In this document: one piece after another, positions 3,158 through 7,402 of the stretch
How positions within the stretch are numbered: the stretch's first letter is position 1
Layout of the letters: each line of letters begins with the position of its first letter
Source of the DNA: a virus
Lineage: Duplodnaviria; Heunggongvirae; Uroviricota; Caudoviricetes
Virus record (IMG/VR): IMGVR_UViG_2703718796_000007
Reading direction: 5' to 3' (one strand)
DNA length: 14,877 nucleotides
Position numbers and translations under genes: made by a program
Notes under the pieces: model-generated
The model's input: only the letters and a program-made list of their open reading frames with translations
Database searches by the model: none
Told to the model about the DNA's origin: nothing

Positions 3158-3183
3158 TGATGCACCTCACTTAAATGGACTTT

Positions 3184-4479: not shown

Positions 4480-4779
4480 ATGAAACTTAAATATTCTGGC
4501 TTAACTGCCAGTGGCAACACTCACCCTAAATTTACGCGCGGTGATATTTACCGCGACCAGTACGGCGGCACGGTAATGATTAAGGGCGTGGCGGGACGGT
4601 GCGTAACTTACCGCCGTGAAGGTTACGAATATGATTGCGTGATGCCTGTTTATCAGTTCCGGCGTGATTTTTCTCTGGTACAGGCCGTACCGCGTAACGT
4701 GCCCACCAGCAGGGAGAAAGCACGCGCCAATATTCAGAAGATGAAAAACATGATTAACGGATTCAGGGGCAAGAAATGA
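4480..4779 (+). CDS. Small conserved prophage protein (possibly DUF4222-like)
   Basis: GGAG Shine-Dalgarno 8 nt upstream. RGDIYRDQYGGTVMIKGV...VTYRREGYEYDCVMPVYQF resembles a small family common in enterobacterial prophages; the family name is from memory and tentative. Confidence 0.55.
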   Translation: MKLKYSGLTASGNTHPKFTRGDIYRDQYGGTVMIKGVAGRCVTYRREGYEYDCVMPVYQFRRDFSLVQAVPRNVPTSREKARANIQKMKNMINGFRGKK

Positions 4780-6173
4780 AAAGCGCACCGAACTTAAAAA
4801 AACAGCCTTACGACAAGATGACCGAAGTCATCATTTTTGCGGGTAGTGATGCGTGGGCACATGCGAAACAGTGGCAGGAACAGGACGGGCGACTGGCTGG
4901 CGATAATTTGCCTCCCATTGTGCTGGCTGATGATCAACTGGATGAACTGGCAGACCTGAGAATCATCGACGAGGGGCGCTATTGTGTCCGGCTGTACAAG
5001 GCAGGCCACATCAGGCCATCAAATATTAATGCCATTGCGCACAAGCTGGCGGCGGCGGGCGTAACTGATGCGAATTATTACCCCGAAGGGATACACAGCC
5101 AGAAGCGGGAGAACTGGCGCGAATATCTGGAACGGGAGCGGGGGAAAAAGCCAGGGGAAGAACACCACCAGCGAAAAACCACGCTACCGATGAGCGTTGG
5201 ATCTGCCGGATACGACACGCAATTAGATTACGTGGTAAAGGGGATTATTCCGGCATCGTCGCTATGCAGCATATACGGGGCAAGCGGTTCCTATAAATCA
5301 TTCCTTGCTGGTTCGTGGGCGTGTCACGTTTCCACGGGCCGCCAGTGGGGAGGCCGCAGGGTGGCGCATGGCGCTGTTCTCTATGTGGTTGGTGAAGGCG
5401 GTATCGGCGTTCCGCGTCGTGTAAAAGCCTGGGAGGTTGTGCACGGTGAGCAGGTGAAAAATCTGTATCTGGTAAACCGTCCCATCTTTCCGGCTGTCCC
5501 GCTTGATGTTGATGAACTGGTTATTGCTGCCAGTCAGGTGGAGAGGGAAACGGGTAAACCTGTTCGCATGATTATTCTGGACACGCTGGCGCGCTGCTTT
5601 GGCGGCAATGATGAAAATGACTCCCGCGACATGGGGGCGTTTATCCGTGGGTGTGACGAACTGAAACGACGCACAGGGGCCACGGTGCTGGTGGTTCACC
5701 ATTCCGGCAAGGATGAGACGAAAGGCGCGCGCGGTTCCAGTGCATTTCGTGCATCACTGGATGCTGAATACCGGATACGCAGGGAGGACGCAGGAAGCGA
5801 AGCGCTGGTTATCTCATGCACCAAAATGAAGGACGCGGAGGAACTCAAAGAGGCTGCCTATGATTTGCGGGTGGTGGAGCTTTTTACCGACGCTGACGGG
5901 GAGTTAATCACGTCGCTGGTGGTGGTGGATAAGCCGCGCCCTCCCGTTGAACTGGAGCGCATCGAGGAGGCAGGGAACAAGACGGAAAACCATACCGCGC
6001 TATGGGGGTGCATCCGTTCACGCACACAGAACGGCGACAAGTGCACGATCCCGCTGTTACGTGATGACATGAAAAAACTGGGGTATGAAATGAAAAACTT
6101 CCGGCGCTGGCTGTACAAGCTGGAAAAAGATGGGGTTATTCGTATCGATGGGGATGATGTAGCGCCGCTATAA
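4776..6173 (+). CDS. Replication initiator: RepA-like / AAA_25-type RecA-fold ATPase (helicase loader or helicase) with an N-terminal extension
   Basis: 465 aa. Walker A-like YGASGSYKSFLAG; Walker B MIILDTLARCFGG; the VLVVHHSGKD motif typical of RepA/AAA_25 proteins. Followed immediately by iterons. Confidence 0.85.
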   Translation: MKSAPNLKKQPYDKMTEVIIFAGSDAWAHAKQWQEQDGRLAGDNLPPIVLADDQLDELADLRIIDEGRYCVRLYKAGHIRPSNINAIAHKLAAAGVTDANYYPEGIHSQKRENWREYLERERGKKPGEEHHQRKTTLPMSVGSAGYDTQLDYVVKGIIPASSLCSIYGASGSYKSFLAGSWACHVSTGRQWGGRRVAHGAVLYVVGEGGIGVPRRVKAWEVVHGEQVKNLYLVNRPIFPAVPLDVDELVIAASQVERETGKPVRMIILDTLARCFGGNDENDSRDMGAFIRGCDELKRRTGATVLVVHHSGKDETKGARGSSAFRASLDAEYRIRREDAGSEALVISCTKMKDAEELKEAAYDLRVVELFTDADGELITSLVVVDKPRPPVELERIEEAGNKTENHTALWGCIRSRTQNGDKCTIPLLRDDMKKLGYEMKNFRRWLYKLEKDGVIRIDGDDVAPL

Positions 6174-6364
6174 AAGTGAGGAGCAAAAGCGAGGGGGGTA
6201 GAAAGAGGGCCAAAATTAGCCTGCTCTCCCTCACTTTTCGACCTGTATACATCCTCAAAAGTGAGGGGTAAAAAAATACTTATGAAACACACGCATAGAA
6301 AAACCAAAAATCCCAACTGCGACGAAGTGAGACGCTTGAAAAAGTGAGGCGAAAAAGTGAGAGG
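6172..6364. repeat. Iteron-type replication origin: at least six copies of AAAAGTGAGG-like repeats in both orientations flanking an A-rich segment
   Basis: Copies at 6172-6181, 6185-6194 (aaaagcgagg), 6229-6238 (inverted), 6257-6266, 6340-6349 and 6353-6364, plus a degenerate gaagtgaga at 6324-6332. A-rich stretch at 6268-6312. Position directly 3' of the rep gene is typical of satellite origins. Confidence 0.65.
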
Positions 6365-6373
6365 TTGCGAGAA

Positions 6374-6625
6374 ATGACCCAAAAACGCAGAGACAGAACA
6401 GAGCCGAAATATAAGGCGTTAGATATGGCTGAACTGGCTTTAAAGGTGGCAATCAGAACGATAGACCGCCACGCGGGGGAAGGATACGCGAAGGAGCATC
6501 CCGAACTGATAAGCGCATTCATGACAACAGCGGCGGCAAACTTTGCCACGCTGACAGAACGGGAGATTGCCGAAGCGGAACAGGTAACAACCATCAACGT
6601 TAAAACCGGAGAGGTGGAATCATGA
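6374..6625 (+). CDS. Hypothetical 83-aa protein
   Basis: ATG at 6374 is preferred over the GTG at 6344, which lies inside the iterons; stop overlaps the next start. Confidence 0.5.
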   Translation: MTQKRRDRTEPKYKALDMAELALKVAIRTIDRHAGEGYAKEHPELISAFMTTAAANFATLTEREIAEAEQVTTINVKTGEVES

Positions 6626-6927
6626 GCGAACCAAAATTTGGTGAAAAATTTTACAAGCACAACGGACGGATCACGATTCTGCAAATAAGCGCAGCTACAC
6701 CAGGCTGGTGGGTTGAAACAGATGAAGGATCCTCACCCGTGGCATCATGGGCGCTTTGTGTGCTTAGTTACCCTGACCGCGATGTGTATCAGGATATTCT
6801 GCCTGTGATATCCACTGACAAAGGCATGAAACCCGTAGACATCAAAAACATGGGGTTTCAGTGCGTAATGCTCACTGAAAAAATGATGGAAGAGATGAAA
6901 AAGAACAATGCCGGATCGCTTCACTGA
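6622..6927 (+). CDS. Hypothetical 101-aa protein
   Basis: ORF coupled to the upstream gene by an ATGA overlap. Confidence 0.5.
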   Translation: MSEPKFGEKFYKHNGRITILQISAATPGWWVETDEGSSPVASWALCVLSYPDRDVYQDILPVISTDKGMKPVDIKNMGFQCVMLTEKMMEEMKKNNAGSLH

Positions 6928-6936
6928 GGTGGCAAT

Positions 6937-7098
6937 ATGACAGCACAAATTGCAGCTTACGGGCGGCTGGTGGACGACCCGCAGGTAAAACAGAGCAGCA
7001 AGGGCACACCGGAGCCGCCAACGGAGAACTACGCAGACCTGAGAAATGCAGTAAATCGCACTTACGCAGACATGGGGCTGAGCAAATTAGCAGAGTAG
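6937..7098 (+). CDS. 53-aa ORF whose N-terminus resembles the start of SSB-type OB-fold proteins (possible remnant)
   Basis: Strong RBS (GAGGTGG, 4 nt, ATG). IAAYGRLVDDPQVK parallels the SSB N-terminal pattern hhGxLxxDPxV[RK], but the ORF is far too short for an OB fold. Absent from the ORF track because it is under 60 aa. Confidence 0.35.
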   Translation: MTAQIAAYGRLVDDPQVKQSSKGTPEPPTENYADLRNAVNRTYADMGLSKLAE

Positions 7099-7120
7099 GA
7101 ATATCAGAACCACACCATAC

Positions 7121-7150
7121 AGCCGGAGCAATCCGGCTTTTTGTTATTTT
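7121..7150 (+). terminator. Rho-independent terminator closing the early/replication operon
   Basis: AGCCGGA-gcaa-TCCGGCT followed by TTTTTGTTATTTTTT. Confidence 0.7.
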
Positions 7151-7263
7151 TTGTAAATTATTTGTTCGTGGTTGTTCCACGTTGTTCACTGAGCGGATCG
7201 GCATATTTTACCCGAACTGAATCATGATTATTCTCGCCCGTGGTGCCAGGACGCTGGGGCCAC

Positions 7264-7311
7264 TTTCCCGCCTGTTAATGTGCCCGCCAATATTCATTAC
7301 CAGGCGGGAAA
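7264..7311. promoter_or_regulatory. 11-bp perfect inverted repeat with a 26-bp spacer, upstream of the head operon
   Basis: TTTCCCGCCTG (7264-7274) and CAGGCGGGAAA (7301-7311). Confidence 0.4.
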
Positions 7312-7364
7312 ACGATCGGTGCGATTGCTGATTTCCTTATGAAAAACGGTTGAGTGTTTGCCGC

Positions 7365-7402
7365 GTCCTGGAGTTCCTTACTTAACCCCAGGACTTTTTT
7401 TT
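7365..7402 (+). terminator. Hairpin plus T8 tract abutting the capsid start codon; terminator- or attenuator-like, and sequesters the capsid Shine-Dalgarno
   Basis: GTCCTGG (7365-7371) pairs with CCAGGAC (7388-7394) across a 16-nt loop; T8 at 7395-7402; ATG at 7403. The AGGA at 7390-7393 lies in the 3' arm of the stem. Confidence 0.4.

What the first reader, a model, noticed from the sequence alone, without database searches (positions are those of the whole stretch)
6172..6364. Iteron-type origin directly downstream of the rep gene
At least six copies of AAAAGTGAGG-like 10-mers in both orientations flank an A-rich segment immediately after the RepA-like ATPase stop. This is the expected layout for a satellite origin bound by its own initiator and marks the element as an autonomous replicon after induction. 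The downstream gene's apparent GTG start at 6344 lies within the iterons, so its true start is probably the ATG at 6374.
Basis: partly seen in the sequence, partly recalled or inferred. Interest (0 to 1): 0.55.

Follow-up and report, generated by a model that had tools for sequence, protein, structure and literature searches.

The report
Satellite replication origin with iterons
The repeat cluster just after the helicase gene is very probably the replication origin of a phage-satellite island (a capsid-forming PICI); this layout is already known for such islands, and comparison with about 100 related loci suggests which amino acid of the helicase reads the repeats.

Summary
AAAAGTGAGG (up to 1 mismatch) occurs six times in the 14.9 kb window, all within 6172-6362 (0.97 expected; none of 200 shuffles reached six). 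A seventh, weaker copy lies at 6323-6332.

The window is a capsid-forming PICI. It encodes int, alpA, DUF4222, Rep, capsid, protease, portal, connectors, HNH, TerS and TerL.

The array sits where PICI origins are known to lie, immediately 3' of rep, with iteron sets flanking an AT-rich stretch.

Ninety-odd related loci from more than 25 enterobacterial genera keep the same layout, including a head-to-head iteron pair around a TGTATA(T)A core. The repeat sequence itself changes in concert, as GTGAGG, GTGGGG or GTGCGGC.

That change tracks one residue (N441/H/K/S) at the start of the third helix of a predicted winged-helix domain at the Rep C-terminus. In a prospective test, 8 of 10 loci fitted cleanly, 2 had mixed arrays and none was contrary.

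The motor is a RecA-fold RepA/T7 gp4-like helicase, not the AAA+ type of SaPI Rep or the Rep types of EcCICFT073 and the Sakai copy of EcCIEDL933.

The ATG at 6374 is the true start of the downstream gene.

No replication or binding was tested.

The parts
4776..6173 (+). rep: 465-aa initiator-helicase. It has a portable N-terminal domain (aa 1-125), a RecA-fold AAA_25 (RepA / T7 gp4-like) ATPase core (aa 146-314) and a C-terminal winged-helix domain (aa about 400-465).
   Evidence: Pfam AAA_25, E 2.8e-43. Weak match to the RSF1010 RepA helicase 1g8y. Walker A G168-S175, D269 and H308-K312 are invariant in 28 homologues. AF2 models.
5973..6170 (+). Segment coding for the predicted winged-helix origin-binding domain (aa 400-465). 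The N441 codon AAC lies at 6096-6098, at the N-cap of helix 3 (FRRWLYKLEK).
   Evidence: pLDDT 86-94 with H-H-H-beta-beta topology. All top Foldseek hits are winged-helix domains, with rmsd 2.2-2.8 A but E >= 0.03. Residue 441 co-varies with the variable iteron base.
6172..6181 (+). Iteron 1, AAAAGTGAGG; overlaps the rep stop codon TAA (6171-6173).
6185..6194 (+). Iteron 2, AAAAGCGAGG (1 mismatch), 13 nt after iteron 1.
6195..6209 (+). Probable decayed third left iteron (GGGGGTAGAAAGAGG). It aligns with intact third copies in relatives.
   Evidence: Alignment A1 and related loci. Not significant on its own.
6229..6238 (-). Iteron 4, inverted (CCTCACTTTT on the + strand); left arm of the central head-to-head pair.
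6242..6252 (.). Conserved core CCTGTATACAT (palindrome TGTATACA at 6244-6251) midway between the inverted iterons. It is conserved across all iteron classes.
   Evidence: 72 of the 75 loci that have a central inverted pair carry a (T)GTATA(T)A-type core; 63 of the 75 have identical 20-nt spacing.
6257..6266 (+). Iteron 5, AAAAGTGAGG; right arm of the central pair.
6268..6320 (.). A-rich / AT-rich segment; candidate DNA-unwinding region.
   Evidence: GC about 0.40 and AT skew +0.5. Local minimum of nearest-neighbour stability, z about 2. An equivalent AT-rich stretch is present in related loci.
6323..6332 (+). Iteron 6, weak (CGAAGTGAGA; core AAGTGAG at 6325-6331).
   Evidence: aligned copies in relatives
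6340..6349 (+). Iteron 7, AAAAGTGAGG; contains the spurious GTG 'start' at 6344.
6353..6362 (+). Iteron 8, AAAAGTGAGA. Its 3' end (GAGAGG, 6359-6364) also serves as the Shine-Dalgarno sequence, 9 nt before ATG 6374.
6374..6625 (+). Downstream 83-aa gene of unknown function, with its true start at ATG 6374. It belongs to the next module, not to the origin.
   Evidence: 93% identity from Met1 to Sakai ECs_1586, whose upstream DNA is unrelated. Homology breakpoints at 6367-6372. PGAP start calls.

Best explanation
Window 6172-6364 is the vegetative replication origin of a capsid-forming phage-inducible chromosomal island. Rep is the product of the adjacent gene.

Rep appears to be a self-loading initiator-helicase. 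It has a RecA-fold (RepA / T7 gp4-like) motor followed by a C-terminal winged-helix domain. That domain is inferred to bind the AAAAGTGAGG repeats, with residue N441 at the start of helix 3 reading the variable A of GTGAGG.

After helper-phage induction, through AlpA, rep is transcribed. Rep would then occupy three sites: the left direct repeats, the head-to-head pair that brackets the conserved TGTATACA core, and the right direct repeats. It would oligomerise, open the DNA at the core and/or the A-rich segment (6268-6320), and load itself as the replicative helicase. Because this Rep has no primase domain, priming would fall to the host DnaG.

Shown here: the repeats, their non-random clustering, the conserved geometry, their linkage to rep, and the residue-base covariation.

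Inferred: binding, melting, helicase loading, polarity and the source of priming.
For: Clustering: all 6 near-exact copies in 14.9 kb lie within 190 nt directly after the rep stop (0 of 200 shuffles).

Context: the element is a PICI or cf-PICI. PICI origins are defined as the iteron / AT-rich region immediately 3' of rep. This was shown by Rep- and ori-dependent plasmid maintenance for EcCICFT073 (PMC6092414) and by EMSA and cryoEM for SaPI Reps, whose C-terminal winged helix binds the iterons (PMC9371898).

Comparative anatomy: most of the related loci fetched (78 of the 80 from the genome scan could be analysed) carry 5-11 repeat copies at the same offsets from the rep stop (about +1, +12, -55, +84, +144, +171, +183). 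Of 91 loci examined, 75 have the central inverted pair; 63 of those share the same 20-nt spacer and 72 have a TGTATA-type core.

Concerted change: in E. coli loci L086 and L087 the repeats read AAAAGTGGGG where the window has AAAAGTGAGG (one L086 copy reads AAAAGCGGGG), although the L087 Rep is 96% identical to the window's. All substitutions that separate the two classes lie in aa 407-463.

Residue-base association: N goes with A in 24 of 24 loci, S with C in 7 of 7, H with G in 9 of 10 and K with G in 32 of 34.

Prospective test, with predictions written down: H to G, 4 of 4; S to C, 2 of 2; N to A, 2 clean and 2 mixed. P0016 has the L086-like sequence at aa 407-426 but N441, and its origin has GTGAGG repeats. 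This isolates position 441 from the other candidate positions.

Structure: aa 400-465 are modelled with pLDDT about 90 as helix-helix-helix-beta-hairpin, and N441 caps helix 3.

Module boundaries: the array stays with rep while the downstream genes differ (83-aa ORF, SSB, ProQ-like, CoiA-like). Homology with other islands resumes exactly at the right edge of the array.

Other signals: there is no sigma-70-like promoter and no + strand terminator in the array, and no DnaA box or IHF consensus. This fits a self-loading initiator.
Against: No experiment exists for this Rep-ori type. The tested PICI origins use other helicase families: the SF3 D5-type in EcCICFT073, the DUF927/Cch-type in the Sakai Sp7 island that the paper equates with EcCIEDL933, and AAA+ in SaPIs.

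The residue-base association largely follows clades, so the number of independent events is small. Rep codons 407-465 and the origin are physically adjacent and can be inherited as one recombination block.

Two of four N441 test loci have mixed A/G arrays (L090, L095).

The A-rich segment is only a moderate stability minimum.

The full-length Rep model is poor (mean pLDDT 65). Foldseek matches for the C-terminal domain are not statistically significant.

Only one repeat is inverted, so the array is not symmetric about the AT-rich segment as described for SaPI origins.
Confidence: 0.85

Rival explanations
1. The repeats are operator sites through which Rep, or another island protein, controls transcription of the downstream late / packaging genes or of rep itself. 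On this reading they are a regulatory array rather than a site of initiation.
For: The array lies between rep and the next gene. The last repeat overlaps the Shine-Dalgarno sequence of ATG 6374, so a bound protein could occlude translation or transcription. Iteron arrays in plasmids often double as autoregulatory sites (general knowledge).
Against: There is no sigma-70-like promoter in 5900-7400. Gram-negative PICIs are transcribed unidirectionally from upstream (PMC6092414). The downstream gene differs between loci while the array stays with rep, and homology breaks at the right edge of the array. The fixed head-to-head pair with a TATA-like core, followed by an AT-rich stretch, is an origin-type geometry conserved in 75 of 91 loci. 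This reading does not exclude an origin function.
Confidence: 0.07
2. The repeats are bound by a different island-encoded DNA-binding protein (AlpA, the DUF4222 protein or the 83-aa product), not by Rep.
For: DUF4222 is encoded immediately upstream of rep in almost every locus fetched by protein identity. AlpA is a DNA-binding protein.
Against: The switch in repeat class between the window and L087 coincides with substitutions confined to Rep aa 407-463. DUF4222 also precedes the unrelated Rep of EcCICFT073, whose repeats (GGTAGAYA) are different. The Xenorhabdus loci share the repeat class with the window through the Rep C-terminal part. Covariation of the other proteins with repeat class was not tested.
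Confidence: 0.04
3. The array is a packaging signal (cos or pac site) recognised by the island's terminase.
For: cf-PICIs package their own DNA specifically, and TerS proteins often recognise repeats (general knowledge; bioRxiv 10.1101/2022.09.08.507074).
Against: The same rep-plus-array cassette occurs in islands with unrelated packaging modules: a lambda-type capsid and decoration protein with TerS in L084, an HK97-type module in the window, and others. cf-PICIs with the same packaging module (Sakai Sp7) have a different array next to a different Rep. The repeat class follows a Rep residue, not the terminase.
Confidence: 0.02
4. The repeats are a chance or decaying low-complexity purine-rich stretch with no function.
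For: The region is purine-rich on the + strand (AT skew +0.5), and at 2 mismatches the motif is not above background.
Against: None of 200 dinucleotide-preserving shuffles reached the observed count. Repeat positions are conserved while the spacers diverge (L085, 82% identity). The concerted class switches require selection.
Confidence: 0.01

Closest known systems
PICI / SaPI replication origins (Ubeda et al., as summarised in PMC9371898; Fillol-Salom et al. 2018, PMC6092414)
   Same: The origin lies immediately downstream of rep. Short repeats of 5-10 nt occur in two groups around an AT-rich centre, with copies in opposite orientation. The initiator is itself the helicase and carries a C-terminal winged-helix domain that gives cognate specificity. 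There are no DnaA boxes. The element is a helper-induced satellite island. The same cassette, 95.8% identical, lies inside the catalogued island EcCIRM12579.
   Different: The motor is a RecA-fold AAA_25 (RepA / T7 gp4-like, presumably SF4) helicase, not the AAA+ type of SaPI Rep. Only one repeat is inverted, and it forms a fixed head-to-head pair to the left of the AT-rich stretch rather than a symmetric layout. No functional test exists for this Rep type.
EcCICFT073 rep-ori (the functionally tested Gram-negative PICI replicon)
   Same: It occupies the same slot in a homologous island backbone (int, AlpA, Icd-like, DUF4222, rep, intergenic array, small ORF, PerC). The Rep N-terminal 125 aa are 63% identical. 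Its array also has iterons in both orientations around an AT-rich stretch.
   Different: The rest of its Rep is an unrelated D5_N / DUF5906 / Pox_D5 SF3-type protein. Its repeats are GGTAGAYA, not AAAAGTGAGG.
Phage P4 alpha protein with ori and crr
   Same: It is a satellite-phage initiator that combines primase, helicase and a C-terminal winged-helix origin-binding domain reading short iterons (my own knowledge of Ziegelin et al. and Yeo et al.). Long-form relatives of the window's Rep carry a fused Zn-ribbon/Toprim primase.
   Different: P4 alpha has an SF3 helicase and an archaeo-eukaryotic-type primase. P4 also needs a second repeat cluster (crr). No second cluster exists in this window: there is only one stray AAGTGAG, at 3166.
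RSF1010 / IncQ RepA helicase and T7 gp4 primase-helicase
   Same: The ATPase core belongs to the same Pfam family, AAA_25, and shows weak direct similarity to 1g8y. Long-form relatives have the gp4-like Zn-ribbon-Toprim-helicase order.
   Different: In IncQ plasmids the iterons are bound by a separate initiator (RepC), and RepA has no DNA-recognition domain. gp4 has no origin-binding domain either. Here the helicase carries its own winged helix.
Classical iteron plasmids (pPS10, F, R6K, RK2; Rep_3-type winged-helix initiators)
   Same: Direct repeats spaced about one helical turn apart (12-13 nt here) lie next to an AT-rich unwinding element, and they are read by winged-helix domains.
   Different: There is no Rep_3 initiator, DnaA box or IHF site. 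The repeats are 10 nt rather than 17-22 nt. The initiator is itself the helicase rather than a recruiter of host DnaB.

Membership tests
PICI-type replication origin | Located immediately 3' of the replication initiator gene of a PICI | tested here: met
   The first repeat overlaps the rep stop codon. The island carries int, AlpA, rep and a packaging module.
PICI-type replication origin | [quoted passage not shown] | tested here: met
   Copies at 6172, 6185, 6229(-) and 6257 lie to the left, and copies at 6323, 6340 and 6353 to the right, of the A-rich stretch 6268-6320. The AT-richness is modest.
PICI-type replication origin | [quoted passage not shown] | tested here: not met
   Only one copy is on the - strand (6229-6238). 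It pairs head-to-head with 6257-6266, to the left of the AT-rich stretch. All right-hand copies are on the + strand. Relatives have the same layout.
PICI-type replication origin | Initiator-helicase with a C-terminal winged-helix domain giving cognate iteron specificity | tested here: met
   This is met only at the level of prediction and covariation. The fold is predicted with pLDDT about 90. Residue 441 co-varies with the variable repeat base, and 8 of 10 prospective predictions were clean. Physical binding was not tested.
PICI-type replication origin | Rep- and ori-dependent autonomous replication | not testable with these tools
   This requires cloning and replication assays. Published tests concern other Rep families (PMC6092414).
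SaPI Rep (AAA+ self-loading helicase) family | AAA+ ATPase core homologous to SaPI Rep / Cch | tested here: not met
   Pfam assigns AAA_25, a RecA-fold RepA family. The PDB sequence hit is RSF1010 RepA. Foldseek returns Rad51/RadA cores. By contrast, the Sakai cf-PICI Rep is DUF927 + HTH_56 (Cch-like).
Capsid-forming PICI (cf-PICI) | [quoted passage not shown] | tested here: met
   Pfam hits: Phage_capsid, Peptidase_S78, Phage_portal, Phage_HCP, Phage_connect_1, HNH, Terminase_4, TerL, Phage_integrase and Phage_AlpA. Gene order matches L001 and the Sakai Sp7 island. Absence of tail and lysis genes was judged only within the 14.9 kb window.
Rep_3-type iteron plasmid origin | Rep_3 initiator, DnaA boxes and iterons of 17-22 bp | tested here: not met
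   There is no Rep_3 hit and no DnaA box in 6172-6364. The repeats are 10 nt.
P4-type ori / crr system | A second cis-acting repeat cluster (crr) and an SF3 alpha-type primase-helicase | tested here: not met
   No second repeat cluster exists in the window. The helicase is AAA_25, not D5/SF3.

The most novel reading that the evidence does not exclude
This Rep-ori cassette may represent a distinct class of bacterial self-loading replicative helicase. In this class a RecA-fold, presumably SF4, motor carries its own winged-helix origin reader. A single residue at the N-cap of helix 3 sets iteron specificity (Asn for A, His or Lys for G, Ser for C). The fixed head-to-head iteron pair around the TGTATA core would be the site where two hexamers assemble back-to-back. 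That would make it a bacterial, SF4-based analogue of the SV40 T-antigen and papillomavirus E1 origins, and would give a simple code for predicting replication incompatibility and cross-talk between co-resident satellites.
Probability: 0.35. Interest if true: 0.55.

Novelty: new member of a known kind. Interest (0 to 1): 0.33.

Why it matters
The result fixes the origin and its exact boundaries in a capsid-forming satellite island. It also corrects the start of the neighbouring gene.

It shows that the rep-ori unit is an exchangeable cassette. At least three unrelated helicase-initiators, each with its own iterons, occupy the same slot in E. coli PICIs and cf-PICIs.

The residue-441 / iteron-base relationship is a testable specificity rule. 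If it holds, it would allow replicon specificity groups to be predicted from sequence, and so whether co-resident islands can cross-activate or compete. It would also make orthogonal Rep-ori pairs easy to engineer.

None of this overturns current understanding of PICI replication.

Tried and rejected
- **Promoter or terminator reading.** No sigma-70-like site was found in 5900-7400. The only terminator-like hit inside the array is a weak 5-bp stem on the - strand. The 11-bp inverted repeat folds well as single-stranded DNA (-9.6 kcal/mol, z -4.5), but no T-tract follows it on either strand.
- **DnaA boxes and IHF sites.** None occur in the array, and window-wide counts are at chance.
- **Degenerate copies at 2 mismatches.** Not above chance, so they were not claimed.
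- **Strong DNA-unwinding element.** The A-rich segment is only about 2 sd less stable than average, and 12 other stretches in the window are less stable.
- **Fold search with the full-length Rep model.** The model is poor (pLDDT 65), and the only hits are weak RecA-fold ones.
- **Fold search with the C-terminal domain.** All top hits are winged helices, but E >= 0.03. This is consistent with the fold, not proof of it.
- **Direct experimental precedent.** I looked for one in the functionally studied islands. EcCICFT073 and the Sakai Sp7 island (stated in PMC6092414 Table S2 to be the same as the EDL933 element) carry different Reps and different repeats. The EDL933 record NC_002655.2 is not in the collection. 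A first guess at the CFT073 coordinates landed in a lambdoid prophage.
- **Figure 2a of PMC6092414.** It shows iteron sequences only as an image, so I could not establish whether this repeat had already been printed.
- **NCBIfam.** It gave no useful names.
Full report
**1. What is in the sequence**

The stop codon of the 465-aa ORF 4776-6173 is TAA at 6171-6173. The 10-mer AAAAGTGAGG starts inside it, at 6172.

Allowing one mismatch, this 10-mer occurs six times in the 14,877-nt window, and all six lie between 6172 and 6362:
- 6172+
- 6185+ (AAAAGCGAGG)
- 6229-
- 6257+
- 6340+
- 6353+ (AAAAGTGAGA)

Dinucleotide-preserving shuffles give 0.97 hits on average, and none of 200 reached six. The 7-mer core AAGTGAG adds a weaker copy at 6325-6331. 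Six of its seven occurrences in the window lie here, against 1.0 expected. At two mismatches the pattern falls to background, so I claim no further copies from the window alone. Alignment with relatives does suggest a decayed third left-hand copy near 6195-6209.

The single minus-strand copy and the following plus-strand copy form a perfect 11-nt inverted repeat (6228-6238 and 6257-6267). It surrounds the palindrome TGTATACA at 6244-6251.

The A-rich stretch 6268-6320 is real: GC is about 0.40 and AT skew is +0.5. It is the local minimum of nearest-neighbour duplex stability. However, it is only about 2 sd from the window mean and is not among the twelve least stable stretches of the window.

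**2. What the element is**

Pfam assigns the following:
- an integrase at 1-1218
- AlpA at 1583-1768
- DUF4222 at 4480-4779
- an AAA_25 (RepA-family) ATPase at 4776-6173
- an HK97-type capsid, an S78 prohead protease, a portal, a head-completion protein and a head-tail connector
- HNH, a P27-type TerS and TerL

.

This is the gene set and order of a capsid-forming PICI (bioRxiv 10.1101/2022.09.08.507074; criteria restated in 10.1101/2025.02.11.637232). The closest complete E. coli genome is 95% identical over rep and the array, and has the same gene order.

**3. What is known about such origins**

[quoted passage not shown] The EcCICFT073 rep-ori segment maintained a temperature-sensitive plasmid in a manner that depended on both rep and ori (PMC6092414).

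SaPI Reps are self-loading helicases. Their C-terminal winged-helix domain binds iterons lying just downstream of rep (PMC9371898).

The remaining question was whether it applies to this particular Rep and array.

**4. The tested islands carry different cassettes**

EcCICFT073 has the same backbone as the window (int, HTH/AlpA, Icd-like, DUF4222, rep, intergenic array, small ORF, PerC). Its Rep, however, is a 584-aa D5_N/DUF5906/Pox_D5 protein. It shares only the first 125 residues (63% identity) with the window's Rep. Its repeats are GGTAGAYA.

The Sakai Sp7 island is stated in PMC6092414 Table S2 to be the same as the EDL933 element. It has the window's packaging module but a 710-aa DUF927 + HTH_56 (Cch-like) Rep, followed by ATAACCCGCA repeats.

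So at least three unrelated initiator-helicases, each with its own repeats, occupy the same slot. No published experiment addresses the RepA-type cassette.

The same cassette, at 95.8% identity, lies inside the catalogued island EcCIRM12579: the H28 match at 1443655-1444160 falls within 1438155-1449376. The authors state that all their islands share the origin organisation.

**5. Comparative anatomy**

A scan of one genome per species with the Rep protein returned 80 loci from more than 25 genera of Enterobacterales. In most of them the 300 nt after the rep stop hold 5-11 copies of a 9-mer at nearly constant offsets: about +1, +12, -55, +84, +144, +171 and +183.

With the further loci fetched later, 91 were examined for the central inverted pair:
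- 75 have the pair.
- 63 of those have exactly the same 20-nt spacer.
- 72 have a (T)GTATA(T)A-type core in the middle.

The repeat sequence is not constant. It is GTGAGG in the window and in Xenorhabdus. It is GTGGGGG in Serratia, Pectobacterium, Morganella and others. It is GTGGGGA in Pantoea, Kluyvera and Kosakonia, and GTGCGGC in Kosakonia cowanii, Leclercia, Phytobacter, Enterobacter and Citrobacter amalonaticus.

Within a locus nearly all copies share the same variant. This pattern is hard to explain without one sequence-specific binder per lineage.

**6. Which protein reads the repeats**

*Domain swaps.* The repeat class follows the Rep tree built on the C-terminal 335 residues, not the N-terminal domain. 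The window's N-domain resembles that of L002 (54% identity), which has GTGCGGC repeats. Its residues 131-400 resemble Xenorhabdus Reps (63-78% identity), which have GTGAGG repeats and a fused Zn-ribbon/Toprim primase in place of the N-domain.

*A switch within E. coli.* L087 encodes a Rep 96% identical to the window's, with only scattered differences up to residue 406 that do not track repeat class. Yet the repeats in its origin read AAAAGTGGGG. L086 shows the same switch, with one copy reading AAAAGCGGGG. The substitutions shared by L086 and L087 and absent from the GTGAGG-class Reps all lie in residues 407-463. L085 keeps GTGAGG although its spacers have diverged strongly (82% identity overall).

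*One residue tracks the variable base.* Across all loci, the residue aligned with N441, in the motif K-x-F-x-R-W-L, tracks the variable base:

| Residue at 441 | Variable repeat base | Loci fitting |
|---|---|---|
| N | A | 24 of 24 |
| S | C | 7 of 7 |
| H | G | 9 of 10 |
| K | G | 32 of 34 |

The exceptions are loci with few or no recognisable repeats.

**7. Prospective test**

Homologues from the protein database shuffle residue 441 against the other candidate positions. I wrote down predictions before fetching their DNA.

| Prediction | Loci | Result |
|---|---|---|
| H gives G | L089, L091, L094, L099 | 4 of 4 correct |
| S gives C | L097, L098 | 2 of 2 correct |
| N gives A | L088, L100 | clean A arrays |
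| N gives A | L095 | hybrid: A-type left and centre, G-type right cluster |
| N gives A | L090 | mosaic; its right half is that of L099 |

.

L088 is the most informative case. Its Rep has the L086-like sequence at 407-426 but N441, and its repeats are GTGAGG. Two Reps with Gly at this position have GTGCGC-type repeats.

The score is 8 clean, 2 mixed and 0 contrary. The mixed cases suggest either that Asn tolerates G or that not all repeat groups are essential.

**8. Structure**

The full-length AlphaFold model is poor (mean pLDDT 65). Residues 400-465 are confident (86-94) and form three helices followed by a beta-hairpin.

Modelled alone, the domain has pLDDT of about 90. All its top Foldseek matches in the PDB are winged-helix domains: DtxR/IdeR (including DNA complexes), MepR, PcaR, cullin WHB and the MCM4 WH domain. 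They align at 2.2-2.8 A over 62-72 residues. The E-values are not significant (0.03 or higher), so this is consistency rather than proof.

N441 sits at the N-cap of the third helix. By general knowledge of the fold, this is the usual recognition helix. Asn with adenine and His or Lys with guanine are common pairings, also by general knowledge.

The ATPase core is RecA-like. The evidence is Pfam AAA_25, a weak match to RSF1010 RepA (1g8y), and Rad51/RadA fold hits. Walker A, Walker B and the HHSGK motif are invariant in 28 homologues.

**9. Rival readings**

- **Transcriptional operator.** This cannot be excluded as a second function, because the last repeat supplies the Shine-Dalgarno sequence GAGAGG (6359-6364), 9 nt before ATG 6374. 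However, there is no promoter-like site. The downstream gene varies between loci while the array stays with rep.
- **Packaging site.** This is contradicted by the presence of the cassette in islands with unrelated packaging modules, and by a different array in islands with the same packaging module.
- **Another binding protein (AlpA or DUF4222).** This is unlikely. DUF4222 also precedes the unrelated EcCICFT073 Rep, which has different repeats. I did not test covariation for these proteins.
- **Chance.** Excluded by the shuffles and by the conservation pattern.

**10. The downstream start codon**

The 83-aa product read from ATG 6374 is 93% identical, from Met1, to Sakai ECs_1586. The DNA upstream of that gene is an unrelated array.

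In many E. coli genomes homology to the window begins at about 6367-6372 (query positions 248-253). PGAP starts the gene about 200 nt after the rep stop in L001, L084, L086 and L087.

The GTG at 6344 lies inside a repeat and has no Shine-Dalgarno sequence.

**11. Mechanism proposed**

Shown:
- the repeat cluster and its conserved geometry
- its linkage to rep
- the residue-base covariation
- the predicted winged helix
- the absence of DnaA and IHF sites

Inferred:
- After AlpA-dependent induction, Rep binds the repeats through its C-terminal domain.
- The 12-13 nt spacing of the direct repeats places neighbouring protomers on one face of the helix.
- The fixed head-to-head pair positions two assemblies across the TGTATACA core.
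- The DNA opens at the core and/or the A-rich stretch, and Rep loads itself as the fork helicase.
- Because this Rep lacks the Zn-ribbon/Toprim primase present in its long-form relatives, the host primase would be required.

Polarity, stoichiometry and the first melted bases are unknown.

**12. Novelty and score**

The kind is known, and a 96%-identical cassette sits in a published PICI. This is a new member of a known kind.

The added value lies in five points:
- the exact anatomy of the origin
- the conserved central pair and core
- the recognition that this cassette uses a RecA-fold rather than an AAA+ motor
- the modularity of the rep-ori slot
- a testable one-residue specificity rule

Interest: 0.33.

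Noticed in passing
window 4776-5150 (Rep aa 1-125); L083 5242-5616: The N-terminal 125 residues of this RecA-fold Rep are 63% identical to the N-terminus of the otherwise unrelated SF3/D5-type Rep of EcCICFT073, and 54% identical to that of L002. Long-form relatives (Xenorhabdus, Serratia) carry a Zn-ribbon/Toprim primase there instead. It is a portable alpha/beta domain of unknown function (pLDDT 70-90), and it does not determine iteron class.
   Followed up: partly
L083 about 7184-7206; L027, L028, L032, L033, L035-L038, L092, L093, L097, about 90-125 nt after the rep stop: A motif of the form AAAGCC..GCCATTACTGG lies in the centre of 11 origins of short-form Reps (background 0.03 per 260 nt). 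It also lies in the EcCICFT073 origin, although the iterons and the helicase family differ there. It is absent from the window's origin. No explanation.
   Followed up: partly
L095 2605-2850; L090 2599-2850; L099 2396-2640: Hybrid origins. In L095 (Rep with N441) the left and central repeats are GTGAGG but the right cluster is GTGGGG. L090 is a mosaic whose right half matches that of L099 (Rep with H441). Recombination inside the AT-rich centre seems to be tolerated. This implies either relaxed specificity of Asn or that one repeat group is dispensable.
   Followed up: partly
window 4776-6364 compared with L083 5242-7284 and L096 6601-9103: Three unrelated Rep-ori cassettes occupy the same slot, between DUF4222 and the small-ORF / SSB / PerC genes, in E. 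coli PICIs and cf-PICIs. They are: RepA-type with AAAAGTGAGG, D5-type with GGTAGAYA, and DUF927/Cch-like with ATAACCCGCA. The right-hand recombination boundary lies at window 6367-6372.
   Followed up: yes
window 6622-6927: A 101-aa ORF with no Pfam or NCBIfam match follows the 83-aa gene, at the position where many related islands (L084, L086, Sakai Sp7) encode an SSB. L085 has both this ORF and an SSB. The window's island therefore seems to lack its own SSB.
   Followed up: no
window 6359-6364 and 6171-6173: The origin is packed tightly against both neighbouring genes. The first iteron overlaps the rep stop codon, and the last iteron provides the Shine-Dalgarno sequence of the next gene. Rep bound to the origin could therefore affect translation of that gene.
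   Followed up: no
L092 1762-2010; L093 2617-2860: Enterobacter-type Reps with Gly at the position of N441 (motif RKGF) are followed by GTGCGC-type repeats. This is a further iteron class, not seen in the genome scan.
   Followed up: partly
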